DNA of 52,835 nucleotides. Origin: a virus. Lineage: Duplodnaviria; Caudoviricetes. The notes below the pieces were generated by a model. The model ran no database searches and was not told where the DNA came from. It saw nothing but the letters and a program-made list of their open reading frames with translations. How positions within the stretch are numbered: the stretch's first letter is position 1; every line of letters starts with the position of its first letter. The stretch spans positions 1 through 52,835 of IMG/VR virus record IMGVR_UViG_3300022666_000286; one strand, 5' to 3'. Positions 27,531 through 49,963 of this stretch are shown here, one piece after another. The position numbers and the translations under genes were made by a program.

Positions 27531-27556
27531 GGGCTAACAAGAAGTATTGTTCTACC
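27531..27556. repeat. dif/lox-like site 3 (GGGCTAACAA-GAAGTA-TTGTTCTACC)
   Basis: Family member; overlaps stop of J-domain gene. Confidence 0.6.
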
Positions 27557-28067
27557 TGGAAATGGCCTCTTCATAAGCCGCCCGTAAACGCTTAAAATCC
27601 TCAGCTCTACCCCCTACATCTGGATGGTGAACTTTAGCCAGGGCGCGATAGGCGTTGGTTATTTCGGCTTTATCAGCGTCACTTCTGACGCCAAGAATTT
27701 CCCACCACTGCGCCCGGCCATCGCCCAGCAGCAGGGCCGTATCATTGGTCAGCGCAGCAAATCCCAAGAAAAACTGAGCAAATGTTTGGTCAAGCTGTTC
27801 GGTTTTGCCGGTAACACCATATTCTTCCAGCGCCCGCCACAAGTAGGTGATGGTCAGTTGGGCCGCCCGCAGATTATCCATCGGGTTATTGTAACGGGTG
27901 CAGCGAAAGGCATACCGCTGCCCGGCCCGGTCAAAAATGATTTCAGCCTGGCCGGTGAACAGGTCTTGATTGATTTTTAAGCTGGTCGCGCCCAACTTGC
28001 GCACCAGCGTGGTTAGTTCCTTCTGAATCGTCTGTGGTTGGGCGCTGAATCTGCGGTTTGTTGCCAT
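27552..28067 (-). CDS. J-domain (DnaJ-like) protein
   Basis: WEILGV...AYRALAKVHHPDVGG with HPD motif at C-terminus. Confidence 0.88.
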   Translation of the reverse strand: MATNRRFSAQPQTIQKELTTLVRKLGATSLKINQDLFTGQAEIIFDRAGQRYAFRCTRYNNPMDNLRAAQLTITYLWRALEEYGVTGKTEQLDQTFAQFFLGFAALTNDTALLLGDGRAQWWEILGVRSDADKAEITNAYRALAKVHHPDVGGRAEDFKRLRAAYEEAISR

Positions 28068-29569: not shown

Positions 29570-30678
29570 TATTCACCTCGTTCGATAAATTTCAGTTCCA
29601 CCGGGCCGTCCACAAATTGTTTCAGCGCCCGCGCCATGTGGTTTTTTAGCCGGGTTTCCAGCCATTCTTTGGTGTAATTGTTCTCAACCTCCACCGTCCA
29701 CACCCCATCATCAGCGGAGATGAGCGTTGTGTCTTTAAGACACGTGTCAAATGTGGCTTTGGTCATTTGCAGCCGTAACACATTTAGCACATCCGCCCAA
29801 AGCTCCGCCTGTTTATCCGGCGGAGGTAGCGCCAGAGCCTCCACCGGCGATGGTTCTCCGGCCATAGCCCGGGCCTCGGCCAGCCGGGTACTGATTATTT
29901 TCTGAAAGTACGGCAGTGGTTTTTTAGGCTGGTACGCCGCCGTTTTGTCTATGGCGGCTATCAGCCAATCTCTGGCCGTTTCTCCGCCGGTGATGGCCGC
30001 TTGCCGCAGGTCGGGGTCGGCTAACAACCGGTCAATAACCTCATTGGCGTTGATACCGCCGTTATTACCGCCAAAATAACGCTGCCAGAGTAGTTTTGGC
30101 TCTGTATCGTCACAAATCTGTGACGGTGGTGAGGTATCGTCATAAATTTGTGACGATACCTCGTTAGATGATGACTCCTTATCTTTTAAATCATTAATAG
30201 AATCATCATCATGATCAATCGTATCGTCATGAATTTGTGACGGGTATCGGCATGAATTTGTGACAGGGGGTTTACCATTGTGAGGGGACTCAGAGGAGGG
30301 CTTTTCACCCTCTGAATTTTGATAAGTCTGGACCTCCGGCTCAATAAGTCGGCTGGGCTGAAGGGCGCTTGCCAAGTCACCGGAATCGGCAGGGGTCAAT
30401 CGCTGCCGCCCATCGGTGAGGGTGATCGCGGTCACCAAGTTCATCCCAATTAATTTACCGAGGAGCCTTCTCACTTTTTCCCTGTTGGTATTCAAGTAGA
30501 TACCAAGCTCGGCGTTGTAGCACTCCACAAAGCCGTGCTGCCAACTGAGCGCCACCAAAATCTGGTACAGCCGGTACGCCTGATCCGGCAACTCAGCATT
30601 GAGCAGCGGAATAACGGATGACGTAAATGTTTTTCGTGGGGGTAAGGCAAACGGGTTTGAGCGTGTTTTACGCGGCAT
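29569..30678 (-). CDS. Replication initiator: N-terminal wHTH, internal iterons, C-terminal DnaA domain I-like
   Basis: LWADVLNVLRLQMTKATFDTCLKDT...KEWLETRL resembles the DnaA N-terminus; internal repeats. Confidence 0.8.
   Translation of the reverse strand: MPRKTRSNPFALPPRKTFTSSVIPLLNAELPDQAYRLYQILVALSWQHGFVECYNAELGIYLNTNREKVRRLLGKLIGMNLVTAITLTDGRQRLTPADSGDLASALQPSRLIEPEVQTYQNSEGEKPSSESPHNGKPPVTNSCRYPSQIHDDTIDHDDDSINDLKDKESSSNEVSSQIYDDTSPPSQICDDTEPKLLWQRYFGGNNGGINANEVIDRLLADPDLRQAAITGGETARDWLIAAIDKTAAYQPKKPLPYFQKIISTRLAEARAMAGEPSPVEALALPPPDKQAELWADVLNVLRLQMTKATFDTCLKDTTLISADDGVWTVEVENNYTKEWLETRLKNHMARALKQFVDGPVELKFIERGE
30104..30265. repeat. Iteron origin: four 22-bp repeats around an AT-rich core
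   Basis: GTATCGTCAYRAATYTGTGACG-like at 30104, 30134, 30221, 30244; AT-rich 30175-30220. Confidence 0.85.
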
Positions 30679-30686: not shown

Positions 30687-31358
30687 TTATAGGGGCAGGC
30701 GCATAGTGCGCGGCTGCAAGATTTCAATCTCATTCCAGTTCCAGGCCGGTTGAGGCAGTCGCCGGCACCAGCCAAACTTACCTTTTGGCCCAGGCACAGG
30801 CAGCCCGGCAGAATTGGTATACATGGGCTGCCAGTTCATTTGGCGGTACAGAGTGCCGCGATGAAAGGCCGGATCGTGATAACTGATGATTAATTCTATG
30901 TGGTATGGCTGGTCTGGTAACACCGGCGGCCACAGACTAATACGGTCCGTCTGAATCCGTTTTAGCACTTCACCCACCACCCAACTGGCCACTGCCGGTC
31001 GCCACTGACCGCCCCGATCCACAAAACCCGGTACCACCCCGGCGCGGCAGGCTTTGCCGCCATATTGCAATACGCTATCCAGATAAATGCGACACAGATC
31101 AACCACCTGCCATTGCGTTATCAACCCCGGATAGCCCCACCAACCGCTACAACGGGTTGCGTGCGGGATACCGGCTATCACCAGGCCGGCATCCCAGTTA
31201 TCTAAAGCAACCACATACACCATTGGCCGGGCGCGGTTGTCAACCGGTCGGCGCAGGTAGTGATAATATGTGACCGTTTCCTGCGCCCAGGCCAGGTCAG
31301 CTTTATTCCCAAGACGAATAGTGAGCCTGTGTGAATCCTGAATCTGGGCGCTGGGCAT
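30687..31358 (-). CDS. Mom-like (GNAT-fold) DNA modification protein
   Basis: YHYL, DLCRIYL, IISYHDP..H.GTLYRQMNW resemble Mu Mom family motifs. Confidence 0.65.
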   Translation of the reverse strand: MPSAQIQDSHRLTIRLGNKADLAWAQETVTYYHYLRRPVDNRARPMVYVVALDNWDAGLVIAGIPHATRCSGWWGYPGLITQWQVVDLCRIYLDSVLQYGGKACRAGVVPGFVDRGGQWRPAVASWVVGEVLKRIQTDRISLWPPVLPDQPYHIELIISYHDPAFHRGTLYRQMNWQPMYTNSAGLPVPGPKGKFGWCRRLPQPAWNWNEIEILQPRTMRLPL

Positions 31359-32200: not shown

Positions 32201-32806
32201 TTAACGTCGGCACCAGCTACAGGTACAATCGGGTGCCGGGCCGCCATCATCAAGCCGCTTCAGAAGCAAGGCCGCCTTGTCGTCCAACTCATCTTGTCTG
32301 GTCGGGTCCGGCAGCACTTCAAAGACGCGGATCGGCACCCCGGCCCATTCCCGGTAAACAATATCGCGGGCCGTGTAAATGATGAGCGCCCGTGGCCACC
32401 CGCCATGGCGCAGGTACATCTGCACCTGGTCAACGTGCTCGGCCTTGGGGCCGCCGTACAGTTTGGTAAAATTGCTCCAGTCCACGCTCTTGCACTCAAG
32501 TAGCGTGCCATCATCCAGTACAAAATCCACGTGGCCCCGAAACCGGCTGTCAAATCCGGCCACCACCTCGAGCTGTGCTGCCGGTGGTTCACACCCCAGT
32601 AACCGGATCAGGCTGTGCTCGTGCATGCAACCGGCGTAGCTGTACCAGGCCATCCGATCATCGTCTTGTTTGCCTTCAACCAAATCAAGAAATGTTTTGC
32701 GTGGGCACAGACCGATACTGCTCATTCCCAGATAATCGCGCTGCTGCACATTGGCAGCGGCAATCAGGGCGTTCTTCAACTGCTGTTCCATTTCTTGCGG
32801 GGTCAT
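32201..32806 (-). CDS. Cas4-like PD-(D/E)XK nuclease
   Basis: CPRK, GHVD, ECKS, QVQMY, C-terminal CTCSWC (Fe-S-type cysteines). Confidence 0.8.
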   Translation of the reverse strand: MTPQEMEQQLKNALIAAANVQQRDYLGMSSIGLCPRKTFLDLVEGKQDDDRMAWYSYAGCMHEHSLIRLLGCEPPAAQLEVVAGFDSRFRGHVDFVLDDGTLLECKSVDWSNFTKLYGGPKAEHVDQVQMYLRHGGWPRALIIYTARDIVYREWAGVPIRVFEVLPDPTRQDELDDKAALLLKRLDDGGPAPDCTCSWCRR

Positions 32807-33084
32807 TTTGTTTTTTGGTTCCTTTCCTGTTCTAGCTTGTTCAATTTTTTTGCGGCGGTTTCCCACCTATGGTCGGCCTCAAAATACAATTTCTGTTCCT
32901 TTGGCTTTGACAGGTCCAACGACTTCATTTGCAGCAAAGCCGCATCCATATCCGCCAGAGCCTTGTCACACTCACGCCGGTAAATGATTAACGCCAATTC
33001 CGCCGGGTCTATACGGAAAACATACCGCTGAAACAGTTCAATCAACTCCGGTTTGGTCAGATCGTTCAAAGTTGGCGTTTTCAT
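32803..33084 (-). CDS. Hypothetical protein
   Basis: MKTPTLNDLTKPELI, ATGA-coupled to nuclease. Confidence 0.6.
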   Translation of the reverse strand: MKTPTLNDLTKPELIELFQRYVFRIDPAELALIIYRRECDKALADMDAALLQMKSLDLSKPKEQKLYFEADHRWETAAKKLNKLEQERNQKTK

Positions 33085-33089
33085 ATCAA

Positions 33090-33115
33090 GGTTACACAAG
33101 CAACGTTGTTGGCCC
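33090..33115. repeat. dif/lox-like site 4 (GGTTACACAA-GCAACG-TTGTTGGCCC)
   Basis: Arms identical to inverted site at 43895; overlaps E1 stop codon. Confidence 0.8.
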
Positions 33116-33880
33116 TGTTTCAACGGCCTCAACATACTCGCTGCGGGCGTTGCCGGCCTGCAAGTTTACGTAAGTAGCCCAGGTATCCAGGTTGCGGCTG
33201 ATGATGAGCCGGTACAGGTAATGGGCGGCAAAACTGGCCACCGTCTCGTTAACCATCAAGCCCTGAACGTTGGCCAGGGCGTCATCGGCGCAGGCCCGCC
33301 GCCGTTTTTTCTCTTTGGCCACCAACTCCGGCAGCCGCACCGACGGCAGCGGCAACCCGGAGCAATAGCCCAACGGGCTGATTTTGGGCATATCCGCCGC
33401 CAGGTTGCCAATGACCACCTGGCCGTGCTGGTCGCCGTTGCCGCAATCCAGCCACCACCACCGGCCTGGCTTTGCGCGGGCAATTTTGTCAATCACTCGC
33501 CGGGCAGCGGTGTTGTCTACGCAGCCCACCACCACATTCAGGTCAGCCGAATCAATCTTAAGGTTGGCGGCGCTGACCGGCTCGACAAAGAAGCGGATGG
33601 GCAGGCCAAAGGCGCGGCTGTAGCGCACCGCCAGGGCGCGGGCCTTGGGCTGCCCCACTTCGCTGTCTACAAACAATTGCCGCCACAGGTTTTTGCGCTC
33701 TACCGTGTCGGGGTCAATCAGGGTTAAACCCAGTTCAAGGCCCATTTCACGGGCGTGGCCGGCCAGCCGGGCCAGGCGTTGCACCAGGTAACTGCCGGTG
33801 CCGCCACAGCCCACCACGCTGATGGCCACCCGCTGCGGCTGCCCCACGTTCACCACCAGGCTGGGTTTAAGCGCGTCCAT
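33092..33880 (-). CDS. ThiF/E1-like activating enzyme (PRTRC ThiF family)
   Basis: VVGCGGTGS, DPDTVERKNLWRQ, GCVDN..AR, WLDCGN, ACADDAL...QGLMVN (candidate catalytic Cys). Confidence 0.92.
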   Translation of the reverse strand: MDALKPSLVVNVGQPQRVAISVVGCGGTGSYLVQRLARLAGHAREMGLELGLTLIDPDTVERKNLWRQLFVDSEVGQPKARALAVRYSRAFGLPIRFFVEPVSAANLKIDSADLNVVVGCVDNTAARRVIDKIARAKPGRWWWLDCGNGDQHGQVVIGNLAADMPKISPLGYCSGLPLPSVRLPELVAKEKKRRRACADDALANVQGLMVNETVASFAAHYLYRLIISRNLDTWATYVNLQAGNARSEYVEAVETGPTTLLV

Positions 33881-34502
33881 TGGCCCCGCTCCCGTGCAAA
33901 TTTTGCACTGACACATCCCTGATCCCGCCGTCGAGGTCGGCAAACAGCCAGCTTGCCGGCACGTCCACCATATCGCCGTACAGACCCAACCGCACCCGGA
34001 TTTCCGGCGCGGCCAGCACCCGGCCAATGACGGCGTAGAAGCGGAAGCCCTGCTCGTCGGCATCGTCAACCCCGGAGAAAAAGGCGGGCATCGTGTGGTG
34101 GCTGTGCAACTCGCAGACCACGTTGTCGTAGCCCTGGCCGCTGTAGGATTGCACCCGCACCGCGGTTACTTGCTGGGCCGGGCGCGACACCCGGTAGCGG
34201 TCGCCGTCCCAGCGGAAGAGGTAGGTTTGTTCCTGGCGCTGGCGGGCTTTGTCGCGGGCATCCAGCAACACGTAATACAACAGCGTGGCGGGGATGCGCC
34301 CGTGGGCCAGCATCACCATCCCCGCCAAATCAGGCAGGCCGCGCACCCGGCAGGGGGCCACCGGCAAACAGGCGGCCACATAGTTACCGTAAGCCCGTTT
34401 GAACAGGCCGTTACCGGCCAGCAGGTAATCGTACCCGGCCGGGTGGGGCGGCAATTCGCCCCGGTAAATGGAATGGTTGACCAGATCAGCGAACAGATTC
34501 AT
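33867..34502 (-). CDS. JAB/MPN deubiquitinase-like peptidase (PRTRC protein A)
   Basis: ELHSHHTMPAFFSGVDDADE JAMM motif; LLAGNGLF N-terminal motif. Confidence 0.9.
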   Translation of the reverse strand: MNLFADLVNHSIYRGELPPHPAGYDYLLAGNGLFKRAYGNYVAACLPVAPCRVRGLPDLAGMVMLAHGRIPATLLYYVLLDARDKARQRQEQTYLFRWDGDRYRVSRPAQQVTAVRVQSYSGQGYDNVVCELHSHHTMPAFFSGVDDADEQGFRFYAVIGRVLAAPEIRVRLGLYGDMVDVPASWLFADLDGGIRDVSVQNLHGSGANGRA

Positions 34503-35160
34503 ACAGCCACGCCTCCAGAGTGATATTCATCGGGATCAAATCAGCGGTGGGGTATTCCGCCCGCTGTTCCCCGGCCAAAATACGCCACAACGCGGTCACA
34601 TCGGCCGGGTATTGGTTGCTCTTGCCGTTGGCCAGGTCGCGGTTAAACTCGCTCTCAAAAAACAGGCGGGCCGCCGCCCGGATGGTTGCCAACCCGGCCG
34701 GCGGAAAGTTTACCGAGCCGGGGCAAACCCGGCTGCCGGCGTACACGTTGGGAAACGGGGCATGATACAGTCCGGTGGCAGCGGCAGGCCAGCCGGTCTC
34801 GGCCAGCGCCGCCAGCCGGTAGGTGGTTTGATTGCCCGCCAGCACCAGCGGCGGGCAGGGAATGGTGAACCCTTCGCCGCCGGCCAGCCGCACCCGGCGG
34901 GGTTCCGGCGGCAGGTAGAGCGCCACCAGTTCGGCCAGGCCGCGCCGGGCGTAGTAGAGCAGGTGGGGCGGCAGCAGGCCGGGGCTAACCTGCACATCGG
35001 CCAGAATTTGCGCCACATCCAGCGGCGAAACCTCATCTACCTGGGCCGGTTTTCCGCGTTCATATATGGTGCGCAGAATAGACTCGGTATAAATGTCCAG
35101 CGTTAACACCAACTGCTGGCTGTCCAGGTCGGGGCCTGGGGTCAGGTCAAGAATGTTCAT
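34486..35160 (-). CDS. Prokaryotic E2-like enzyme (PRTRC protein B)
   Basis: LYHAPFPNVYAGSRVCPGS with Cys; FFESEF. Confidence 0.88.
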   Translation of the reverse strand: MNILDLTPGPDLDSQQLVLTLDIYTESILRTIYERGKPAQVDEVSPLDVAQILADVQVSPGLLPPHLLYYARRGLAELVALYLPPEPRRVRLAGGEGFTIPCPPLVLAGNQTTYRLAALAETGWPAAATGLYHAPFPNVYAGSRVCPGSVNFPPAGLATIRAAARLFFESEFNRDLANGKSNQYPADVTALWRILAGEQRAEYPTADLIPMNITLEAWLYESVR

Positions 35161-35932
35161 CGGTTAATTCTCCGGTCAGTAAGTAAATGGCCACCTGCCG
35201 CAAAACCGCGGTTTCATTGGCTTGGCAACGATTGAACAGGGTGTTGGCCGGGTCAAAGATTGTTTCCAGCGCCTCCTCGTATTCGGCGGCCAGGGCGGTG
35301 ATGGTTTCCATTGACCAATCGTATTCCCAGCGCAACTCGCCGCTGTCCTCCGGCGACACGTCCACAAACACGTTGCCGGTGTTGCCCACAAGCCAGTAAT
35401 ACATTGCCCGCAGGCCGGGGATGGCGTTTTGTTCCAGCCGCGCGACGGCAACGTTGCGGTCAATCTCCGCCGGCGACGGCAGGGCCAACCCCAGCCGTTT
35501 GGACAGATCCGCCCACCAATTCTGATGTCGTTCCGGCGAATGCTCATCGCTGCTGATGGCCAGCACCAGCCGCCACAGGTCGTTCCAGTCGTCAAAATCA
35601 ATGGCCCACCCCCCGGATAACCCGTCCACCTGCAGAAAATCGGACAGGTCGGGCAGCGCCAATTCGCCCGGCTCGGTTTCGGCCAGTTCGCGCAGTTCGG
35701 CGTACTCCTCGGCGTAATCGGTGTAAACCGGAAAGTATTCCTGGTCATCGAGCGCCTTAACCACCTGGCCCACCGCCGTACTGATACCGGCCGGGGTCAG
35801 TTGCAGGTTGCCGCCGCACAACTCGCGGTAAACCCGGGCAAAATTCATAAATACCAGCCGGTTGGCCAAAGCATCGCGCAGGGCGCTGTAGGCTACCGGG
35901 GGTCGTCGAATGTCCACGTGGCTTTGCTGCAT
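35147..35932 (-). CDS. Acidic helical protein, paralog 1 (PRTRC F position)
   Basis: YFP, NTGNVFVD, W..E.I..LA..Y shared with neighbour. Confidence 0.6.
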   Translation of the reverse strand: MQQSHVDIRRPPVAYSALRDALANRLVFMNFARVYRELCGGNLQLTPAGISTAVGQVVKALDDQEYFPVYTDYAEEYAELRELAETEPGELALPDLSDFLQVDGLSGGWAIDFDDWNDLWRLVLAISSDEHSPERHQNWWADLSKRLGLALPSPAEIDRNVAVARLEQNAIPGLRAMYYWLVGNTGNVFVDVSPEDSGELRWEYDWSMETITALAAEYEEALETIFDPANTLFNRCQANETAVLRQVAIYLLTGELTDEHS

Positions 35933-36675
35933 CGGGTTAACATCTCCATTACGGCATAGTGGTTCTGGTCCGGGGCGGCCTCGAACCAGGTTTTGAACGC
36001 CTCAATCTGCTCAACCACCGGCTGCGCCTGCCGCCAATAATCGGCCAACTGTTGCACATCATCTTTGGTCCAGTACCAAAACGTGTACTGGTAATCCCCC
36101 ACAAAATCCGGGCCGGGCAACAGCAAAAAAGGGTTGGCCAACTGCTGCATAGAAATGTAGATCATCTGCCCCAACCCGGGCCACGGGTCGCCCTGGGCCG
36201 TTAACCAATCCAACCCAATTTGCCAGGCTTCCGCCGAGGCGTAGGGGGCCAGCCACCAGACATCCGGCGGGTAGCCAATATCTTCAAAAAACCATTCATC
36301 CTGCTCTTGCAGGTAATTGAGCAGCATCACCGCGCCGGCGGCCTGCTGGTATGGTTCCAGGTCGCCAATAGCGGCTTCCTCAAATGGAATGCGGTAGCCG
36401 CTGATGGGGACGGTTTCGGCCAGCGGGTCGCCGCCATAAACCAACTCCTCCAGCCACAACCAGTTGAGCGGGAACAACTCCCGGTCAACCCGCTCAAACA
36501 GCCGGTCGGTCAGCCCGGCTAACGTTCCGGCGGGCGGTGGCTCGTTGAAGATGGTGGCCCACAGCCGGGCCGCCTTGAGCGGCGACAACGCCTCATTCAG
36601 CCGCTCGATCAGCGCGGTGTAACTTACAGGCCGGGCGGCGGTATGCGCGACGGGCGCGACGGCATTTGTTGGCAT
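35893..36675 (-). CDS. Acidic helical protein, paralog 2 (PRTRC F position)
   Basis: LFP, LANPFL, W..D.V..LA.YW shared with neighbour. Confidence 0.6.
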   Translation of the reverse strand: MPTNAVAPVAHTAARPVSYTALIERLNEALSPLKAARLWATIFNEPPPAGTLAGLTDRLFERVDRELFPLNWLWLEELVYGGDPLAETVPISGYRIPFEEAAIGDLEPYQQAAGAVMLLNYLQEQDEWFFEDIGYPPDVWWLAPYASAEAWQIGLDWLTAQGDPWPGLGQMIYISMQQLANPFLLLPGPDFVGDYQYTFWYWTKDDVQQLADYWRQAQPVVEQIEAFKTWFEAAPDQNHYAVMEMLTRCSKATWTFDDPR

Positions 36676-36863
36676 TGGGCGCTGATCCGTTTGATTGTGT
36701 CTAACTGCCGGTTTAATTGGGCAACGGCCTGGTCTATCTCTTCCAACCGGGCCAGGTAAATATCCAGGGTATCAGTTCGTTTCACTTCCAGGTAGAGCGA
36801 TACCGCCGGCACGTCCGCCGGCGGTAAGCCGGTCAACCTGGCGGCAAGGCCGGCGGCGGTCAC
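36624..36863 (-). CDS. Small hypothetical protein
   Basis: GTGA-coupled, coiled-coil C-terminus. Confidence 0.5.
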   Translation of the reverse strand: MTAAGLAARLTGLPPADVPAVSLYLEVKRTDTLDIYLARLEEIDQAVAQLNRQLDTIKRISAQCQQMPSRPSRIPPPGL

Positions 36864-37156
36864 AGCACAAATCCCGGCAGCCGGGGCGCAATCTCCGGCG
36901 GCAAACTGGCCAATTGCTGATCCAGCGGCACCAGGCTAACCTGCGGTTTCTCGCGCCAGAGCAGGTAGGTTCCGTTGGGTAGCCAGTATCCGTCGCCGCA
37001 CTGCGAGTAATGGGTGGTCAATGCGGCTGATTTACTGGGAGCCTCAACGGTGACTTTGTGTTCCTGCCAATCGCTTTCGTCCGGCTGCTCGCCGGCTATA
37101 TCTTCCACGGCAGCGGCGGTTAGAATGGTAGCCCACCCGCTAAGGATGAATTTCAT
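36860..37156 (-). CDS. Hypothetical protein
   Basis: Start MKFILSGW after GAAGGGGG. Confidence 0.55.
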   Translation of the reverse strand: MKFILSGWATILTAAAVEDIAGEQPDESDWQEHKVTVEAPSKSAALTTHYSQCGDGYWLPNGTYLLWREKPQVSLVPLDQQLASLPPEIAPRLPGFVL

Positions 37157-37694
37157 TGTTGCCCCCTTCCCCGGCATTTGATTGGGCCGCTTTGATAGCG
37201 CGTTTGAGCTTGTCGATGGCGATAAATTCACTGAGTTCAACGGGCTGGTTTTGTTTGATCACTTTTACGGCAAAGGTCGCGGCCTCCAGCAACTCCGGCG
37301 CGGCGGCAAACAGTTGGGCGTAAGCGTGGCTCTCCGGGTCGTGGGCCGGGCCGGTCACGGCTACCAAGCCGCGAGTTTCGGCATCCATCACAGCGGTATG
37401 TTCCGGGATTTGCAGGAATTTAGTAGTGGGGGTGTAATACCCCACCGCCAGGCCCGGCCCGCCGCCTTTGGTGCCGGCTTTTTTGGTGAAGGTTAGCTCC
37501 AGGTCGCCATCGGCCAGAACGCGCTGGCCGATCTCGCATTTGGCCGCTTCGGGAAACTGCTTGGCCAACTCACGCTGCACAATCTCAATGGTCAACGCGC
37601 CCTGCGGGTTGGAGTACGGCCCAAAAGTTTTGCCGTCGTATTTGACCACAATCCGGCTGTGACTGATTTTGTCGGTTGGTTTCAGGTCACTCAT
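37140..37694 (-). CDS. Ubiquitin-like protein (PRTRC protein C-like) fused to a C-terminal domain
   Basis: KYDG...QFPE...FTKKAGTKG ends at 37464, then in-frame GGPG linker and ~108 aa containing AAAPELLEA. Confidence 0.75.
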   Translation of the reverse strand: MSDLKPTDKISHSRIVVKYDGKTFGPYSNPQGALTIEIVQRELAKQFPEAAKCEIGQRVLADGDLELTFTKKAGTKGGGPGLAVGYYTPTTKFLQIPEHTAVMDAETRGLVAVTGPAHDPESHAYAQLFAAAPELLEAATFAVKVIKQNQPVELSEFIAIDKLKRAIKAAQSNAGEGGNNEIHP

Positions 37695-38628
37695 TGGTAA
37701 TCTCCTCAGTTTCGCTTTCAAGATAATTAATGATGGCCTGCCGCAGAACACTTTCTAACTCGGCGTACAAACCGGAGTAATACAAGGGGATGTACCCCTT
37801 CAACAAGCCACCCTCAGCATTGATCTCCAACTCAAACGCCCAGGTTTCCGCCCGTTTGAGCCGAATGTTCAGCAACAAATCAGGCTTAACCGGCGCGGCC
37901 ACATTCGGTTCTTCAATTTCAACCGGCGCGGAAAAATCCAGGGTAACGGGTGGGGTTGGGGCTTTGATGGACTTAGCCAAAGGTTGAGCCTGCTGCCGCG
38001 ATGCTTCCGCTTCGGCTTTTACCCGATCCGCCATCAACGGTGTCGCCGGCGGCGTAATCGGTTTGGCTTGCTGGCGCAGCCGGCTTAAGGCCGTTGGGGG
38101 GGCAACTTCCGGGGCGCGGCTGGCCGGATCGTTCGGTTCTTCGGGGGCAACTTCCGGTTCGGCTTCGGCTCCAGTCAAGGTGGCTTGTTGGGGTTGAGCG
38201 GCCTGGGCCGCCGCCTTATGGTCGGCCACAATCGCTTTGGCCGTGGTGTGGCTGATGCGTTCCCCGGCTTCGGCGCGGTCGAGCACCTCGTCCACGGCGC
38301 TGGCCGGGGTGCTGGGCGCGGCCAGCAGATACAGGGCGCTGGTGGCTACATCCATCTGGGCAAAGTTGGCCCGCCCCCTGAATTGCTTGTAGACGCCTAT
38401 AAAGTTATAGGCAGTCCTGCGCGACCAATCGAACTCGGCCTGAAGCCAGGCGTCGAACTGGCCGTTGCCGAGTTTAGCCTGCACCTCCAGCAGTTTTTCG
38501 CCCACCTGCATGACATTTTCGGCGGTGGCGCGCATCAGCGTTTTGATTTCGCCGGCGCGTTGCTGGGCTACAATCCGGGTTTCACTGTCAAGCTGGGTGT
38601 AATCGAACAGGGTCAGTTGGGTACTCAA
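37687..38628 (-). CDS. DUF3102-like HTH protein with PRTRC E-like C-terminus
   Basis: VGEKLLEVQ...GQFDAWL..EF..SRRTAYNFI; Pro/Ala linker; IPLYYSGLYAELE. Confidence 0.7.
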   Translation of the reverse strand: MSTQLTLFDYTQLDSETRIVAQQRAGEIKTLMRATAENVMQVGEKLLEVQAKLGNGQFDAWLQAEFDWSRRTAYNFIGVYKQFRGRANFAQMDVATSALYLLAAPSTPASAVDEVLDRAEAGERISHTTAKAIVADHKAAAQAAQPQQATLTGAEAEPEVAPEEPNDPASRAPEVAPPTALSRLRQQAKPITPPATPLMADRVKAEAEASRQQAQPLAKSIKAPTPPVTLDFSAPVEIEEPNVAAPVKPDLLLNIRLKRAETWAFELEINAEGGLLKGYIPLYYSGLYAELESVLRQAIINYLESETEEITNE

Positions 38629-38650
38629 TCTGTCATCTCCTTTCTATGGT

Positions 38651-39091
38651 TTATTGTTTTTGGCTGATAATTATTTTTTGATCCGCTATGTCCGACAAAG
38701 GCACAGGTGTACCGCACTCGTTTAGTTTGGTAATCCCCAACCAGGGCATTAAAACATTGCTCCACTGAATCAACACTGCCTGCGCGGTGAACGCCATAAC
38801 AACGCTGTTCTGGTCATAAACGCCGGGAGCAAGTTTTACTTTTTGGATCAGGGCGTTAATCCAGCTACGGGCTATTCTGGCATTGCTCCAGCAGGCATTC
38901 TCCGGGTGCTCGCCATAGGCGTGGCCGGAGATGGCCGTATAAAGCTGGGCGGCAACTTCGCCGGTAATCAGAGTGAATCTCTGGTTTAATATGCCCGGCG
39001 GCGGGTTGCCCCAACCGGCGTACAACACGCCGTAACTTTCCGAGATGGCCAAAGTGATGGGCCGGTCAAACGTAATCAATTCTCTGTTCAT
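38651..39091 (-). CDS. Hypothetical protein
   Basis: 146 aa, RBS GGAAAGGA. Confidence 0.55.
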   Translation of the reverse strand: MNRELITFDRPITLAISESYGVLYAGWGNPPPGILNQRFTLITGEVAAQLYTAISGHAYGEHPENACWSNARIARSWINALIQKVKLAPGVYDQNSVVMAFTAQAVLIQWSNVLMPWLGITKLNECGTPVPLSDIADQKIIISQKQ

Positions 39092-39107
39092 GGTTAATTT
39101 CCTTTCC

Positions 39108-39133
39108 GGTTACACAATCTGCCTTGTGTGACC
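39108..39133. repeat. dif/lox-like site 5 (GGTTACACAA-TCTGCC-TTGTGTGACC)
   Basis: Intergenic near-perfect inverted arms. Confidence 0.8.
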
Positions 39134-39496
39134 TTATGCTACGGGTCTGTCATCTATAAATTCTGAGTTTTTGGGTTCGACTATTTCATAAACCGGCCCC
39201 GGCTCTGGCAGATAACCAGCCGCCCCGACCGGCGGCAACTGGTTTTGATACGGGTAATCCGGCAGGCGGTATTGGTTGGTGATTTTGGGTTGAAGCTGCG
39301 GTTGGCTAAACACCGCCCGGGTCCATTGCCGGTTGAGCAGCAGGGCAAAACCCATTGCCAGGGTTGCCCCCATCACAAACATCAGCAGCGCCAAAAATAT
39401 AATGAGCGCGGTTTGGTTGGTGGCCAGGGTATAAATCAGGCCGCCGCCAACGGCCAGGCCAAACCCCAGGCTCATTAGCCACAATATTTTTTTCAC
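39134..39496 (-). CDS. Two-TM membrane protein coupled to FtsK-like gene
   Basis: GTGA overlap; two hydrophobic helices. Confidence 0.7.
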   Translation of the reverse strand: MKKILWLMSLGFGLAVGGGLIYTLATNQTALIIFLALLMFVMGATLAMGFALLLNRQWTRAVFSQPQLQPKITNQYRLPDYPYQNQLPPVGAAGYLPEPGPVYEIVEPKNSEFIDDRPVA

Positions 39497-40779
39497 GCCG
39501 CCAACCCTTTCCTTACCCGCAACCAATAATCGGCTTCTTTATTCAATAACCTGGCATAATCACGGACTTGCATGGCGCGTTGGGTAGCGCCGCCAAACTG
39601 CTTTTGGATGGCGGTGGCGCTGTTGTTGATGACCAGCGCGTAAGCCAGCCGGTGCGGGTCAACCTGCCAGTTTTCAACAATGAGGCTGTCGCCGGCAATG
39701 TTTTCCTGGGCCGGCATCGGCGGTTCCGCCTGAATCCTGGGTAATTGTTCGTAATCAATTGGGTTGGGCAGCGCCGCCCTAAAGCGAGTAACCTTATCGC
39801 CGTTGATGGCCAGCCCATCCCCCAGGCCGCCCAGTTTTTCCGGGTGCTGGCCGGCCAGGTTGGTGGCCAGGTACGCCTGGGCGTGGGGCAGTTGAAACAC
39901 CAGCCGGCTTTGAAAGTTGGCCTGGGCCAGGCTACCGCTCTGCCCAAACGTAGACGGGTTGGCCGCCTGTGAGGCCACAATCAGGTTAATTTTCAGGCCG
40001 CCGGCCATTTGCGAAAGCTGGGTAATGATGGGGCCGCTTTCCGGCATCGCGGCGGTTAGCTGCGCCACTTCATCAATGATGACCACCCAACGCGGCTGGT
40101 AAGGCAACTGTTCGCGGCGGCGTTGGTCCATCTCCCGTAGCGCCAAGCGGAGCAAGGTAACTGCCCCCTCGTAGGTGGTGGCTATTGGGGCAACCAGGTG
40201 CGGCAACCGGGCAAACGCCGCAAACGCCGGATCATTCTTGGGGTTCAAAATCAGGAGTTTTGTCTCCGTGGCCTGCGGATCGGTGCGCGCCAGGCTAATG
40301 ACCATATCAGCCAGAACGGTGGTTTTGCCCGTTTGGGTGCTGCCAAAGATGGCCTTGTGCGGGTTAACCCAATCCAGCCGGGCCACCGGCCCCAGCGCCT
40401 TTTGGCCAATCGTCACCTGTTCGCGGTGGTGGGGCAGGTGCGATAGTTGCACATCGCGCCATTGCGACCGGGGCAGGGTAAACTCAACTCTAACCGCGCC
40501 CAGATCGCGGTAAACCCGGGCAAATTGGCTGGTAGCCTTAAACGCGAAGCGTTCACTCTGCCCCATTACCGTGTCCAAATCCAGGTCATCAATTACCAGG
40601 CTCACGGTTACGCACTGGGGGCCGGCCACCGGACGACCCATAAATTTGAACGGCACGCCGTTGGGTAACTTTGCTATTCGCCCCAACGTTCGCGCCGACC
40701 GGCGCCTGGCTTCGGTTCGATGCAGCACATCGGCCACACTATTCATATAAAACCGTTCCGCCTCCCCTATGGTTGTCAT
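39493..40779 (-). CDS. FtsK/SpoIIIE-like ATPase
   Basis: PHKAIFGSTQTGKT, LPHL, EMDQR, VVIIDE, ASQ; likely start MTTIGE. Confidence 0.85.
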   Translation of the reverse strand: MTTIGEAERFYMNSVADVLHRTEARRRSARTLGRIAKLPNGVPFKFMGRPVAGPQCVTVSLVIDDLDLDTVMGQSERFAFKATSQFARVYRDLGAVRVEFTLPRSQWRDVQLSHLPHHREQVTIGQKALGPVARLDWVNPHKAIFGSTQTGKTTVLADMVISLARTDPQATETKLLILNPKNDPAFAAFARLPHLVAPIATTYEGAVTLLRLALREMDQRRREQLPYQPRWVVIIDEVAQLTAAMPESGPIITQLSQMAGGLKINLIVASQAANPSTFGQSGSLAQANFQSRLVFQLPHAQAYLATNLAGQHPEKLGGLGDGLAINGDKVTRFRAALPNPIDYEQLPRIQAEPPMPAQENIAGDSLIVENWQVDPHRLAYALVINNSATAIQKQFGGATQRAMQVRDYARLLNKEADYWLRVRKGLAA

Positions 40780-40871
40780 CTGCCTATTCCTTATGTATAA
40801 TTGAACTCGGTCAGGGTTTTTGCCTATTCTCCTGACCTTGCCTGTTGCGCCGTTACGCAACAGGCGTTTTT

Positions 40872-41192
40872 TTAGATTGCGGGCCGCAGCGCCCAGCCCC
40901 ATGAGCGGGCCATAATCCCGACCAGTTCCGCCTGAAAACTCAGCCGGGCCAACCCGCACAAAATCAACGCCCGGCCTAATTCAACCACCGCCAAAGTCAA
41001 ATCCAGCCACAGTAACCCCTGAGTTACCAGCCGCCACAACCCATTTACTACCCACTGCCACCAGAATACCAGCCGGGTTAACCACCACAACTTCCATATT
41101 ATTGTTACCCGCGAATGATTACCGGTTTGGCTGATTTTTACCACCGTCAGGCAGTAACCTTCTCTGGTTAACTCAAGTTTTTGTCGCTTCAT
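40872..41192 (-). CDS. Trp-rich putative membrane protein
   Basis: ATGA-coupled; hydrophobic. Confidence 0.4.
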   Translation of the reverse strand: MKRQKLELTREGYCLTVVKISQTGNHSRVTIIWKLWWLTRLVFWWQWVVNGLWRLVTQGLLWLDLTLAVVELGRALILCGLARLSFQAELVGIMARSWGWALRPAI

Positions 41193-42161: not shown

Positions 42162-43235
42162 TTACCCCAAAAACCCGCTCACCGCCAGCTTGGCCAACCC
42201 GCGAGCGTTGGCCAGGGCCGGGTTGGCGGCCATCTCCGCGTGAGGGTACTGCCGTTGCAACCGCCCGGCCATAGCCAGCGCCCCGCCACCGGTCAGGATG
42301 ATGCGGAACCGTTTGGCATCCACTTTGATTCGTTCCCGGATAAAGTTCAGTACGTCAGCCGCCAGGCTGTTAAGCGCCTGGTCAATCTCGGCGGTAATGC
42401 TCACGGCCTCGCCGTGAACGTAAATGACCGGTTTTTCACCGTTAACCCGTTGTTGTAAGCGGGCGTCGGCTTCGTGCAGGCTAAGGGCTACCCCGTGCCC
42501 CTGCTTTACCCGCTGCCGGATCATCTCCGCCGCCCGCGCCATTCCCAGGTCGTCCCCGGCGGTATAGCGGTCGCTGGGTTTGCCGTTTTCTACGGCAAAC
42601 AGATCAAGCGTGTTAAAGCCCTGGTCAATTACCAGCACCGGCGCGGTGCGCCCCGCTGCTCCGCGAATCCATTGGCCCTCCTCATTCAGCGCCCAATCCA
42701 TCCAGGCCCCTAACGGTTGGGCTACCTGCGCCCGAATTTTTGCAACCTCAAAGGCGCTTTCCTGCCCGCCAAAGGTAAAGCGGTGCGGCCCCAACAGCCA
42801 TTTGGCCAGCGCCTTTTCGGTGGCTTCGGCTTTGGCTTTATCCGCCAGCATAGTTACCGGCAGGCCAATAGCTACCGCCACCCGCTGGCCGGTTAGCCCC
42901 AACTGCACCACCAGCGCGTAAAACATTGCCCGCAGTTCGGCGCCATCAATAAACCGGCTTTCGTCTATGTTTTCGATTGGCCGGGTGTAAGCCGCCACGT
43001 TGGGGCCAACCAGGTAATCCATTCCTTCAAACGATACCTGAAAGGGGACCTCGCCCCGTTTCTGGCTGTCCAGCCCGGCCAGGTTTAGCCCGCTGGACTC
43101 AATCCGCCCCACTCCGGCCACGCTGGGCATTGTTACCAAATTCATCTGCCCGTTAACCCAGGCCGCTTTCATCATCCCGTTGCCGGGGTCCCAGCCAAAT
43201 TTTTCCACCGCACTTTTGTTCGTCATCTTGAACAA
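42162..43235 (-). CDS. ParM/StbA actin-like ATPase (PRTRC D-like)
   Basis: GWDPGNGMMK, IGLP, VAQP.G, IDQGFNTLD, LTGGGA, ANARG. Confidence 0.9.
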   Translation of the reverse strand: MFKMTNKSAVEKFGWDPGNGMMKAAWVNGQMNLVTMPSVAGVGRIESSGLNLAGLDSQKRGEVPFQVSFEGMDYLVGPNVAAYTRPIENIDESRFIDGAELRAMFYALVVQLGLTGQRVAVAIGLPVTMLADKAKAEATEKALAKWLLGPHRFTFGGQESAFEVAKIRAQVAQPLGAWMDWALNEEGQWIRGAAGRTAPVLVIDQGFNTLDLFAVENGKPSDRYTAGDDLGMARAAEMIRQRVKQGHGVALSLHEADARLQQRVNGEKPVIYVHGEAVSITAEIDQALNSLAADVLNFIRERIKVDAKRFRIILTGGGALAMAGRLQRQYPHAEMAANPALANARGLAKLAVSGFLG

Positions 43236-43833: not shown

Positions 43834-43894
43834 TTTTATTACAAGCCTCCTTTTCTATGCTACACTGGTACAAAACCAGCACCTTAACAACTCA

Positions 43895-43920
43895 GGGCCA
43901 ACAATTATGCTTGTGTAACC
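43895..43920. repeat. dif/lox-like site 6 (GGGCCAACAA-TTATGC-TTGTGTAACC)
   Basis: About 120 bp downstream of the tyrosine recombinase gene. Confidence 0.8.
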
Positions 43921-44041
43921 TGCACCATTAACTAAACCTCGGCCTTTTGCCCCTTTAGCCGAGGCGGGGCGGGGCAATTGTGCTCTATCCGCAGCCGGAA
44001 GCAAGCCCCACAAGTGGGACACATCCACCTTTGGGTGAATA

Positions 44042-45868: not shown

Positions 45869-46003
45869 AAATACTCTCTATCTGCGCTGAGCCGCCAGGG
45901 GGCGGGGGTGAGCCGGCCTGCCACAAACCGGCTCACCCGAGGCTAAGGGGTCACAGGCGGGGGGAGAAGCCCGCCCACCGGCGGCTCAGGTTGCGTTTGG
46001 TTG

Positions 46004-46395: not shown

Positions 46396-46420
46396 TTTCT
46401 CAATCCTTTTTGGGTAAGAC

Positions 46421-49958: not shown

Positions 49959-49963
49959 GTCAG

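What the first reader, a model, noticed from the sequence alone, without database searches (positions are those of the whole stretch)
33092..39091. Phage-encoded ubiquitin-like conjugation cassette (Ubl-E2-JAB-E1), bracketed by two dif-like sites
Seen: coupled ORFs with E1 (GCGGTGS plus candidate Cys), JAB (HSH-x7-S-x2-D), E2 (HAPFPNV...VCPG) and Ubl (...AGTKG) motifs, all apparently intact; sites at 33090 and 39108 closely flank the block. Known: this is the PRTRC gene set, mostly described on plasmids and ICEs, with function unresolved; other bacterial E1/E2/JAB systems (type II CBASS, Bil) are anti-phage. Inference: here it sits in the early operon just before replication genes, so the phage may conjugate host or phage proteins for counter-defence or replication/partition control.
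Basis: partly seen in the sequence, partly recalled or inferred. Interest (0 to 1): 0.82.

Follow-up and report, generated by a model that had tools for sequence, protein, structure and literature searches.

The report
Phage ubiquitin-like tagging cassette, diverged type
A temperate phage carries an intact but diverged set of ubiquitin-like tagging genes whose small tag protein is made fused to a variable extra domain, so it probably has to be cut free before use; what it tags is still unknown.

Summary
The genes are real. On the minus strand, overlapping ORFs encode E1 (33092-33880), JAB peptidase (33867-34502), E2 (34486-35160), two helical accessory proteins, and a Ubl (37140-37694). Catalytic motifs are intact and invariant across relatives.

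It is a diverged relative of the PRTRC cassette, Iyer-Burroughs-Aravind class "6d". Only the E1 passes its NCBIfam cut-off. No ParB, PRTRC_E or PRTRC_F is detected; a DUF3102 protein sits where ParB usually does.

The host element is a siphovirus-like temperate phage. The cassette lies in a syntenic core between partition and replication genes, shared with IMG/VR phage contigs. The phage setting is not unprecedented: Ralstonia phage Dina, B. gladioli phage AB2 and 23 IMG/VR loci carry such cassettes.

- The "dif-like" sites are 2 of at least 6 copies of an intergenic motif spread over the phage. They do not bracket the cassette.
- The Ubl is not free-standing. After the conserved ...AGTKG the ORF runs on for 107 residues, a P22 Y8K6-like domain.

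Family-wide, 120 of 130 single-domain relatives carry such extensions and 19 of 150 are tandem poly-Ubls. This points to JAB maturation of a precursor. The biological role is unresolved.

The parts
33092..33880 (-). E1-like adenylating enzyme (262 aa from ATG at 33880), single ThiF/MoeB-type domain
   Evidence: NCBIfam PRTRC_ThiF 147.6 bits (cut-off 144.75) and Pfam ThiF 70.8 bits. In an 8-sequence alignment the GxGGxGS loop, D56, D58, N64, R67, Q68, K79, D122, R127 and C197 are invariant. The crossover-loop Cys (GYCSGLP) is present in 7 of 8.
33867..34502 (-). JAB/JAMM metallopeptidase (211 aa) with an N-terminal extra domain
   Evidence: Prok-JAB 32.6 bits (cut-off 25). PRTRC_A 54.7 bits, E 9.5e-15, below the cut-off of 101.8. 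E91, H133, S134, H135, S143 and D146 are invariant in 8 of 8 and 14 of 14 sequences.
34486..35160 (-). E2-like conjugating enzyme (224 aa)
   Evidence: Prok-E2_D 80.6 bits (cut-off 25). PRTRC_B 86.4 bits, below the cut-off of 131.45. H133, A134, P135, N138, C146 and G148 are invariant in 14 of 14 sequences. N138 to C146 is +8, the same spacing as I recall for classical E2s.
35147..35932 (-). U261: all-helical accessory protein in the position of PRTRC_F
   Evidence: No Pfam, NCBIfam, PHROG or PADLOC hit. hhalign against the F-position proteins of L008-L010 gives Prob 93%, E 2.9e-7 over 198 columns. AF2 model: pLDDT 80.6, pTM 0.76, helical. No solved fold matches: Foldseek best E 0.62, VIA best Z 4.1.
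35893..36675 (-). U260: weak paralogue of U261
   Evidence: BLASTP against U261 gives E 0.002. hhalign A4 against A5 gives Prob 54.5%, E 1.2e-4. Orthologues at 74-76% identity in L005 and L006 and 27% in L007. Phages L015-L018 have a single U260-like gene.
36624..36863 (-). U79: small conserved ORF of unknown function
   Evidence: Orthologues at 57-59% identity in L005 and L006 at the same position. A similar 82-aa ORF is present in L007. No family hit.
36860..37156 (-). U98: 98-aa protein from ATG at 37156 (MKFILSG...), ending ...LPGFVL
   Evidence: Orthologues at 59-60% identity in L005 and L006. In P0003 the same sequence type is fused directly behind the Ubl's AGTKG.
37464..37694 (-). Ubl (beta-grasp) domain, residues 1-77 of the fusion protein, ending KKAGTKG
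   Evidence: PRTRC_C E 5.4e-4. Pfam Prok_Ub 14.2 bits here and 25.0 bits in the L007 orthologue. AF2 gives pLDDT about 80 over residues 11-70 with a strand-strand-helix-strand-strand order. G21, P26, P48, A51, G63, K71, A73, G74, K76 and G77 are invariant in 7 sequences.
37140..37463 (-). C-terminal extension of the Ubl ORF (residues 78-184): P22 Y8K6-like domain (PF27050 / phrog_1273)
   Evidence: phrog_1273 E 5.7e-6. PF27050 is precomputed for this protein. The Atlas structure row gives TM 0.70 to PF27050 Phage_P22_Y8K6 clusters. Free-standing homologues are P0007 and P0009-P0011.
37687..38628 (-). DUF3102 protein (313 aa) immediately upstream of the Ubl, in the slot that ParB or PRTRC_E holds in other cassettes
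   Evidence: Pfam DUF3102 32.9 bits. 79% identical orthologue in L005. ParB-type genes hold this slot in 8 of 23 IMG/VR loci and PRTRC_E in 4 of 23.
38651..39091 (-). U146: unknown protein, first gene after the 39107 motif
   Evidence: Orthologues at 47-55% identity in L005 and L006. No family hit.
33089..33116 (.). Copy of the dispersed intergenic motif AGGYYAYMCAA-N6-TTGTKKGMCCT, overlapping the E1 stop codon
   Evidence: 90% complementary over 29 nt to the inverted copy at 43893-43921 (I3).
39107..39134 (.). Most palindromic copy of the same motif, in the 42-bp gap upstream of U146
   Evidence: It matches on both strands.

Best explanation
This is a diverged member of the PRTRC ('6d') class of prokaryotic ubiquitin-like conjugation cassettes. 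It is fixed in the early partition/replication gene array of a temperate siphovirus lineage.

Proposed mechanism. Gene content and motifs are shown; the chemistry is inferred.
1. The Ubl is translated as a precursor, Ubl(1-77)-TKG followed by a variable C-terminal domain. Here that domain is P22 Y8K6-like.
2. The JAB peptidase cuts after Gly77. This frees the extra domain and exposes the Ubl C-terminal glycine.
3. The single-domain ThiF-type E1 adenylates Gly77 and passes it on. A thioester on Cys197 or on the crossover-loop Cys is possible.
4. The Ubl is transferred to Cys146 of the E2.
5. The E2 transfers the Ubl to lysines of target proteins. The fast-evolving helical proteins U261 and U260 are the best candidates for target choice or regulation.
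6. The JAB can also reverse conjugates.

Proposed role. The cassette acts early after the element enters or is induced. It would act on proteins of the element's own DNA-handling module or on host factors that meet it, as an establishment, maintenance or counter-defence function. It would not be a lysogen-expressed defence moron.
For: Identity. E1 is above the PRTRC_ThiF cut-off. Prok-E2_D, Prok-JAB and ThiF are above their Pfam cut-offs. Catalytic residues are invariant in 8-14 homologues. The order Ubl-F-E2-JAB-E1 is kept in the IMG/VR loci: E2 plus E1 in 23 of 23 and JAB in 19 of 23.

Phage core position. Synteny with L005 and L006 runs from ParM through FtsK-like, DUF3102, the cassette, DnaA_N protein and AAA to portal and MuF at 55-90% aa identity. 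The Hma defence block at 18-27.3 kb is missing from L005 and L006.

Neighbours in other phage loci:
- ParB-type gene directly upstream in 8 of 23.
- DnaB helicase downstream in 3.
- Pol III beta in 1.
- DNA ligase in 1.
- ParM-like gene in 1.

Precursor model:
- The ORF runs 107 aa past AGTKG.
- In 9 close relatives the Ubl domain is 61-86% identical, but the sequence after TKG falls into at least 5 classes unrelated by BLASTP.
- Of the 150 best of 512 family hits, 130 are single-domain. Only 10 of these end within 3 aa of the conserved Gly.
- 19 of the 150 are tandem poly-Ubls. 12 of them repeat the xKG end in every unit, followed by 1-15 trailing residues.
- The junction tripeptide is T/S/P-K-G in 120 of 130.
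- A JAB that pre-processes its Ubl is established for Bil (Chambers et al. preprint, passages read).

Mobile-element behaviour. E2 relatives occur in 10 of 60 related genomes and in 0 of 4 genomes of the same genus.
Against: - No experiment or expression data exist. No RNA run holds the stretch.
- PRTRC_A, PRTRC_B and PRTRC_C score below their curated cut-offs. ParB, PRTRC_D, PRTRC_E and PRTRC_F are not detected.
- The E1 catalytic cysteine is ambiguous. The crossover-loop Cys is missing in phage Dina.
- 69 of 113 extended Ubls end in a conserved C-terminal Gly-Phe. The extension may therefore have its own role and may not simply be discarded.
- Multi-beta-grasp Ubls of Bub operons exist (PMC11601603, summary passage read); that they act uncut is my inference, not stated in the passage. 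Tandem repeats alone therefore do not prove cleavage.
- The single-sequence AF2 model is poor beyond residue 75.
- Nothing here identifies a target.
Confidence: 0.55

Rival explanations
1. A prophage-borne anti-phage defence, working like Bil. The lysogen expresses the cassette and conjugates the Ubl to proteins of superinfecting phages.
For: The characterised bacterial E1/E2/JAB systems (type II CBASS, Bil) are anti-phage (passages read). The same prophage carries an Hma defence system. In a P. vulgatus prophage, PRTRC protein B is a hotspot of recurrent variation (bioRxiv 10.64898/2026.10.01.756045, passages read). That fits an arms race.
Against: The cassette lies inside the syntenic, co-directional, overlapping early gene array, not in a variable moron slot. 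The Hma block, by contrast, is absent from L005 and L006. None of JAB, E2, Ubl, U260 or U261 hits a PADLOC model. No promoter or terminator signal exceeds chance: 8 against 6.7 and 25 against 21.6.
Confidence: 0.2
2. No conjugation occurs. The Ubl acts only as a cleavable N-terminal leader or chaperone for variable cargo, or as a sulfur carrier, with E1 and E2 serving another chemistry.
For: The cargo slot is variable and the xKG junction is conserved. The E1 is of the short ThiF/MoeB type rather than a tandem-domain E1.
Against: An E2 with an invariant HAPxPN...C motif is kept in 14 of 14 homologues. No sulfur-metabolism genes or rhodanese domain lie nearby. Iyer et al. note that E1s of these operons never carry rhodanese (passage read).
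Confidence: 0.15
3. The cassette is an independently mobile module delimited by two Xer/dif-type recombination sites.
For: Both sites have two roughly 10-bp arms around a 6-bp spacer. A tyrosine recombinase gene lies at 44042-45238, 121 bp from another copy.
Against: At least 6 copies are spread from 8 kb to 50 kb, all in intergenic gaps. The copy most like 33089 is the inverted one at 43894, not 39107. Relatives L005 and L006 keep the same cassette at the same place without the motif. The 39107 copy lies three genes upstream of the Ubl, not at the cassette edge.
Confidence: 0.03

Closest known systems
PRTRC system (NCBIfam TIGR03734-TIGR03742), equal to operon class '6d' of Iyer, Burroughs and Aravind 2006 (PMC1779556). 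Pfam families: Prok_Ub, alpha-hel2, Prok-E2_D, Prok-JAB, ThiF.
   Same: Same gene order Ubl-helical protein-E2-JAB-E1. Homologous E1, E2, JAB and Ubl. Carried on mobile elements and uncharacterised functionally.
   Different: Only the E1 reaches its curated cut-off. There is no ParB, PRTRC_D, PRTRC_E or detectable PRTRC_F/alpha-hel2. DUF3102 sits in the ParB slot. The helical gene is duplicated (U260 and U261). The Ubl is fused to a Y8K6-like domain. The E2 has an invariant His in HAPFPN, whereas the 2006 description says the classical His is lacking.
PRTRC cassettes already annotated in phages: Ralstonia phage Dina (NC_055026), B. gladioli phage AB2 and BgVeeders33, and a P. vulgatus prophage
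   Same: Temperate phage carriers. The cassette lies next to lysogeny or early genes. Dina's PRTRC_C also runs 62 aa beyond its ...GRKG.
   Different: Those are canonical PRTRC, with all models passing in Dina. E2 identity to the window is only 29%.
Bil (BilABCD) anti-phage ubiquitination system
   Same: Separate Ubl, E2, JAB and E1 genes. The JAB pre-processes a C-terminally extended Ubl.
   Different: The Bil E1 has tandem inactive and active adenylation domains plus a CYS domain. Here the E1 is a 262-aa single domain, and BilD matches at only 21 bits. Bil is a host defence, whereas this cassette is a phage core gene set.
Type II CBASS Cap2/Cap3 and Bub (6E/DUF6527) operons
   Same: E1/E2/JAB-type chemistry in prokaryotic conflict systems. 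The E1 shows weak similarity: PADLOC E1-E2 40 bits and BubCD E 1.3e-6.
   Different: No E1-E2 fusion, no CD-NTase and no DUF6527. The E2 here keeps its cysteine.
Eukaryotic ubiquitin precursor genes: polyubiquitin and ubiquitin-ribosomal protein fusions. Recalled knowledge, not from a call.
   Same: The tag is encoded as head-to-tail repeats with a few trailing residues, or as an N-terminal fusion to another protein, so a peptidase must release it.
   Different: The resemblance is one of architecture only, and processing is not shown here. The junction is xKG, not GG.
Lambda-like tail assembly proteins TAPI (Ubl) and TAPK (JAB), from Iyer 2006 (passages read)
   Same: A phage-encoded Ubl with a conserved Gly followed by a C-terminal domain, predicted to be cut by a JAB.
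   Different: No E1 or E2 is present there, and those genes sit among tail genes. Here the cassette lies in the early region.

Membership tests
PRTRC system (NCBIfam) | PRTRC ThiF-family E1 (TIGR03736) at or above its curated cut-off | tested here: met
   147.6 bits against a cut-off of 144.75.
PRTRC system (NCBIfam) | PRTRC proteins A (JAB), B (E2) and C (Ubl) at or above their curated cut-offs | tested here: not met
   A scores 54.7 against 101.8, B scores 86.4 against 131.45, and C scores 20.1 against 45.95. The E-values (9.5e-15, 1.7e-24, 5.4e-4) show homology but not equivalog membership.
PRTRC system (NCBIfam) | ParB-family protein (TIGR03734) in the cassette | tested here: not met
   No ParB hit among the 16 plus 40 window proteins scanned. 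A DUF3102 protein occupies the slot.
PRTRC system (NCBIfam) | PRTRC proteins D, E and F | tested here: not met
   No hits. U261 is related to the F-position proteins of L008-L010 (Prob 93%). Those proteins show no detectable similarity to Dina's PRTRC_F (Prob 0.4%).
Class 6d operon (Iyer et al. 2006) / Pfam set | Prok-E2_D, Prok-JAB and ThiF domains in adjacent genes | tested here: met
   80.6, 32.6 and 70.8 bits, all above the gathering scores.
Class 6d operon (Iyer et al. 2006) / Pfam set | Prok_Ub Ubl with a conserved C-terminal Gly | tested here: inconclusive
   Prok_Ub scores 14.2 bits here, below 25. The L007 orthologue scores 25.0. The Gly is conserved but internal, not C-terminal.
Class 6d operon (Iyer et al. 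2006) / Pfam set | alpha-hel2 helical protein | tested here: inconclusive
   No Pfam hit for U260 or U261. The model is all-helical and the gene sits in the same position. The 2006 paper calls this protein rapidly diverging.
Class 6d operon (Iyer et al. 2006) / Pfam set | JAB-N domain with conserved Arg and Trp | not tested
   An N-terminal region of about 90 aa precedes the JAMM core. The named residues were not mapped.
Bil (BilABCD) | E1 with tandem inactive and active adenylation domains and a CYS domain | tested here: not met
   The E1 is 262 aa with one ThiF domain. BilD scores 21 bits over 85 residues only.
Type II CBASS | Cap2 E1-E2 fusion next to a CD-NTase | tested here: not met
   E1 and E2 are separate genes. 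No CD-NTase model hit among the 21 proteins scanned with PADLOC.
dif / Xer recombination site | A single site per replicon, recombined by XerCD, with two roughly 11-bp arms around a 6-bp spacer (definition recalled) | tested here: not met
   The arm-spacer-arm layout is present. However, there are at least 6 copies per 52.8 kb, all intergenic. No sequence comparison with a dif consensus was run.

The most novel reading that the evidence does not exclude
The PRTRC/6d Ubl family is genetically organised like eukaryotic ubiquitin. It is encoded as precursors, either an N-terminal Ubl fused to a swappable cargo domain or head-to-tail poly-Ubl of 2-7 units with a few trailing residues. A cognate JAB releases them at a conserved (T/S/P)KG. 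In this phage lineage the position just behind TKG is a hypervariable slot. The phage would use it to express and release different small effector proteins while also generating the conjugatable tag.
Probability: 0.35. Interest if true: 0.8.

Novelty: new variant of a known kind. Interest (0 to 1): 0.58.

Why it matters
Bacterial ubiquitin-like conjugation is now established for type II CBASS, Bil and Bub. The PRTRC/6d class, common on plasmids, ICEs and, as shown here, temperate phages, has no known function and no solved structure. Profile searches of the PDB found nothing for E2, JAB or Ubl.

This phage lineage offers a compact, intact cassette with a natural Ubl-cargo fusion. That makes JAB processing, E1 to E2 transfer and target identification directly testable.

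Ubl precursors and poly-Ubl genes may be the rule in this family. If so, a hallmark of eukaryotic ubiquitin gene architecture has a prokaryotic and viral counterpart.

The finding also raises a further question. Mobile elements may use protein tagging on their own side of the conflict with the host, not only hosts against phages.

Tried and rejected
- C-terminal domain of the DUF3102 or ParB proteins upstream of the Ubl as a PRTRC_E-like domain: not supported. hmmsearch E at least 0.33; hhalign Prob 0.4% and 2.3%.
- U98 as a remnant of the canonical 'GF' extension: not supported. hhalign Prob 0.2%. Only the PGF tripeptide is shared.
- U261 and U260 against Dina's PRTRC_F by BLASTP: nothing.
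- Fold of U261: Foldseek PDB best E 0.62; VIA-align wide best Z 4.1; Atlas gave no usable hit.
- Complex prediction of E2 + JAB + Ubl(1-77) with U261 as partner: no verdict. Score 0.04 against a mark of 0.32, controls not run. This is not evidence either way.
- Poly-Ubl P0021 in IMG/VR: no locus found.
- Genome-contig scan with the E1: only one distant locus, in Deinococcus piscis.
- Motif in related phage loci: absent.
- Promoter and terminator scan: not above shuffles.
- Sequencing runs: 3 DNA runs of one biofilm-metagenome study hold the stretch, and no RNA holder is listed. Laying their contigs showed no informative joint. The loose end at 33089 is the flank of the other motif copy.
- Host phylum: a cyanobacterial host was suspected from plasmid hits, but no phycobilisome family match exists in the 98%-complete genome.
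- Literature searches for PRTRC, Prok-E2, Prok_Ub / alpha-hel2 and ubiquitin-like+ThiF+ParB+JAB found no functional study. Subscription journals are not covered.

Full report
WHAT IS THERE. The window is a whole 52.7-kb contig (C36) of a 5.67-Mb, 71-contig genome that is 98% complete and 7% contaminated. Between 33.1 and 39.1 kb, on the minus strand, lies an unbroken run of ORFs. Each start overlaps the previous stop by 4 to 52 nt.

In transcription order the ORFs are:
- U146, 38651-39091.
- A DUF3102 protein, 37687-38628.
- The Ubl fusion, 37140-37694.
- U98, 36860-37156.
- U79, 36624-36863.
- U260, 35893-36675.
- U261, 35147-35932.
- E2, 34486-35160.
- JAB, 33867-34502.
- E1, 33092-33880.

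- E1: PRTRC_ThiF 147.6 bits (cut-off 144.75) and Pfam ThiF 70.8 bits.
- E2: Prok-E2_D 80.6 bits. PRTRC_B 86.4 bits, below its cut-off of 131.45.
- JAB: Prok-JAB 32.6 bits. PRTRC_A 54.7 bits, below its cut-off of 101.8.
- Ubl: PRTRC_C 20.1 bits, E 5.4e-4, below its cut-off of 45.95.

Alignments with phage and plasmid homologues show the catalytic residues are invariant:
- E1: the GxGGxGS loop, D56, D58, N64, R67, Q68, K79, D122, R127 and a single invariant Cys197. A second Cys in the crossover loop (GYCSGLP) is present in 7 of 8 sequences and missing in phage Dina.
- E2: H133, A134, P135, N138, C146 and G148 in 14 of 14 sequences.
- JAB: E91, H133, S134, H135, S143 and D146 in 8 of 8 and 14 of 14 sequences.

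THE ELEMENT IS A TEMPERATE PHAGE. PHROG and Pfam hits at 0-17.9 kb include tape measure, Dit, tail tube, major head and a MuF-like head protein. Further along are a ParM-like partition ATPase (42162-43235), an FtsK-like ATPase (39493-40959), a tyrosine integrase (44042-45238) and a serine recombinase (51011-52606).

GC content (0.562 against 0.565 for the genome) and tetranucleotide usage (r = 0.978) match the rest of the genome.

Two IMG/VR phage contigs, L005 (69 kb) and L006 (46 kb), share this gene order at 55-90% protein identity: ParM, FtsK-like, membrane protein, U146, DUF3102, Ubl, U98, U79, U260, U261, E2, JAB, E1, DnaA_N-domain protein, AAA ATPase, portal-like, MuF. They lack the window's 18-27.3 kb block. 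PADLOC identifies that block as an HmaA/B/C defence system, with E values of 1.6e-145, 6e-122 and 5e-129.

So the Ubl cassette belongs to the conserved early partition/replication array, while Hma is a later insertion.

HOW IT RELATES TO KNOWN SYSTEMS. This is operon class "6d" of Iyer, Burroughs and Aravind 2006 (PMC1779556; passages read). NCBI models it as the ParB-Related, ThiF-Related Cassette.

The window's version is a diverged variant:
- Only the E1 reaches its curated cut-off.
- No ParB, PRTRC_D, PRTRC_E or PRTRC_F is found.
- A DUF3102 protein sits in the slot just upstream of the Ubl.
- The helical "F" gene is present as two weak paralogues. U261 against U260 gives BLASTP E 0.002 and hhalign Prob 54.5%.

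U261 is homologous to the F-position proteins of more typical phage cassettes L008-L010 (hhalign Prob 93%, E 2.9e-7). Those proteins show no detectable similarity to Dina's PRTRC_F.

U261 models confidently as an all-helical protein (pLDDT 80.6, pTM 0.76). It has no solved structural relative: Foldseek best E 0.62 and VIA best Z 4.1.

Profile searches of PDB sequences find nothing for the E2, JAB or Ubl (best E 0.2-0.6). They find only generic E1s (UBA6, UBA5, BubCD, ThiF) for the E1.

THE PHAGE SETTING IS NOT NEW.
- tblastn of the E2 finds 144 plasmid records. Only 3 phage records match: Ralstonia phage Dina twice, and one unannotated fecal phage.
- Dina's RefSeq record annotates PRTRC E, C, F, B, A and ThiF at its left end.
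- A 2026 paper on B. gladioli prophages notes the cassette in phage AB2 and says its function has not been studied (PMC13366799, passages read).
- A 2026 preprint reports PRTRC protein B as a recurrent variation hotspot in a P. vulgatus prophage (passages read).
- A degenerate-motif scan of IMG/VR with an E2 alignment returned 23 loci on contigs of 5.6-175 kb. Five of these are the contigs of L005 and L007-L010.

With local HMMs:
- 23 of 23 loci have E2 followed by E1.
- 19 of 23 have a detectable JAB between them.
- 15 of 23 have a Ubl upstream by my profile. Two more (L026, L030) are found by Pfam Prok_Ub.

Neighbours:
- A ParB-type gene directly upstream in 8 of 23 loci.
- PRTRC_E in 4 of 23.
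- DnaB helicase downstream in 3.
- Pol III beta in 1, DNA ligase in 1 and a ParM-like gene in 1.

Among 60 genomes related to the host, 10 have an E2 relative at E no higher than 1e-5, and 0 of 4 in the same genus do. This is the patchy pattern of a mobile element.

THE UBL IS A FUSION, AND THAT IS THE RULE IN THE FAMILY. The Ubl ORF does not stop at ...KKAGTKG (residue 77). It continues for 107 residues that match phrog_1273 and PF27050, the P22 Y8K6 family. Free-standing homologues exist (P0007, P0009-P0011).

In nine close relatives the Ubl domain is 61-86% identical to the window's. The sequence after TKG falls into at least five classes that BLASTP does not connect at E 1e-3:
- L005, L006, P0002 and P0004.
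- The window, with a 30-residue patch shared with L007.
- P0003.
- P0005.
- P0006.

In P0003 the Ubl is fused directly to a homologue of the window's next gene, U98. Dina's canonical PRTRC_C also runs 62 residues past its ...GRKG.

A profile of seven phage Ubl domains was searched against 1.84 billion representative proteins and found 512 hits at E no higher than 1e-3. I re-analysed the best 150 locally:
- 130 have one Ubl domain, 19 have 2-7 tandem domains, and 1 was not re-detected.
- Of the 130, only 10 end within 3 residues of the conserved Gly. 7 have 4-30 extra residues, 19 have 31-70, 69 have 71-110 and 25 have more than 110.
- The junction tripeptide is TKG in 85, SKG in 22 and PKG in 13.
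- 69 of the 113 with more than 30 extra residues end in Gly-Phe.
- In 12 of the 19 tandem proteins every unit ends in xKG, and the last unit is followed by 1-15 residues. Examples are I, N, DRA and VKLAK.
- These tandem proteins match Pfam Prok_Ub, not Multi_ubiq: 4 of the 6 scanned did.

The 2006 description called these "small standalone Ub-like proteins". I found no mention of precursor or tandem forms in the searches listed under Tried and rejected.

THE "DIF-LIKE" SITES. Both sequences are present. They belong to a family with the consensus AGGYYAYMCAA-N6-TTGTKKGMCCT. It has six sites: 8126, 16256, 33089, 39107, 43894 (inverted) and 50739. None is expected in 100 shuffles, although the pattern was derived from the copies themselves.

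Every copy lies in a short gap between genes. The gaps are:
- between tail genes
- between the MuF-like and portal-like genes
- at the E1 stop codon
- upstream of U146
- beside the integrase
- upstream of the serine recombinase

The best-matching pair is 33089 with 43894 (90% over 29 nt). Most copies are only partly palindromic, so a protein-binding DNA site is more likely than an RNA hairpin. The motif is absent from L005-L035.

I read it as this phage's own dispersed operator-type or recombinase-type motif. It is not a bracket around the cassette.

HOW IT MOST LIKELY WORKS. Shown: gene content, intact active sites, translational coupling, core-synteny position, the fusion, and the family-wide extension and tandem statistics.

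Inferred:
1. The JAB cuts after Gly77. A JAB that pre-processes its Ubl is established for Bil.
2. The E1 adenylates Gly77.
3. The Ubl passes to E2 Cys146.
4. The E2 transfers it to target lysines.
5. U261 and U260 choose targets or regulate.

The biological role is open. The constant neighbourhood of ParB-type or DUF3102 genes and replication genes, together with the core position, favours a function in the element's own establishment or maintenance. The fast turnover of the slot behind TKG and the reported variation in PRTRC B are the kind of pattern seen in conflict systems. I therefore cannot separate "regulates the element's replication or partition" from "counter-defence".

The main rival is a lysogen-expressed defence like Bil (0.2). 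It is disfavoured by the cassette's position and by the absence of PADLOC matches. A non-conjugating leader or sulfur-carrier role (0.15) is disfavoured by the conserved E2 cysteine.

LIMITS.
- No expression data exist.
- The complex prediction gave no verdict.
- The genomic context of the poly-Ubl genes could not be fetched.
- The conserved Gly-Phe end of many extensions is unexplained.
- The host was not identified beyond not matching a phycobilisome family.

Noticed in passing
window 18038-27318 (-): A complete HmaC/HmaB/HmaA (ATPase, methylase, SNF2 helicase) defence system sits between the replication and packaging genes. It is absent from the syntenic phages L005 and L006, so it is probably a recently acquired moron.
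   Followed up: partly
window 30104-30265: Four direct copies of a 22-nt unit (GTATCGTCATAAATTTGTGACG, 86-100% identical) lie inside the gene for the DnaA_N-domain protein (D4). They look like iterons of a replication origin embedded in the initiator gene.
   Followed up: no
window 8126, 16256, 33089, 39107, 43894, 50739: A dispersed 28-bp intergenic motif with partial dyad symmetry, specific to this phage. It may be operator-like or recombinase-binding. The binder is unknown.
   Followed up: partly
window 9084-9599 (-): A response-regulator receiver domain protein (Response_reg 78.4 bits) is encoded in the middle of the tail and connector genes.
   Followed up: no
window 46000-50000: A low-GC stretch (0.38-0.45 against about 0.57) holds a DUF3873 protein, an HTH repressor-like gene and an HNH endonuclease. 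It is followed by a serine recombinase preceded by a 29-nt perfect-type palindrome at 50885-50942. It is possibly a second mobile insert or the phage's accessory arm.
   Followed up: no
proteins P0013, P0014, P0016, P0021, P0037 and others: Tandem poly-Ubl proteins with 4-7 near-identical Prok_Ub units. Each unit ends AGTKG and 1-5 trailing residues follow the last. This resembles eukaryotic polyubiquitin genes. Their genomic context is unknown.
   Followed up: partly
extended Ubl homologues: 69 of 113 extended Ubl proteins end exactly in Gly-Phe. The window's separate U98 ends ...LPGFVL. No explanation was found.
   Followed up: partly
window 27552-28067 (-) and L004 1262-1924: A J-domain (DnaJ) protein is encoded a few kb from the cassette, both in the window and on the Gloeothece plasmid. 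This may be coincidence.
   Followed up: no
L032 11062-12237: A reverse transcriptase gene lies about 1.3 kb downstream of the E1 in a 175-kb IMG/VR contig. This recalls the preprint's link between diversity-generating retroelements and PRTRC protein B.
   Followed up: no
window 30687-31358 and 32201-32866 (-): A weak Mom-like DNA-modification hit and a Cas4-type exonuclease lie between the cassette and the replication genes. This segment varies between the window, L005 and L006.
   Followed up: no
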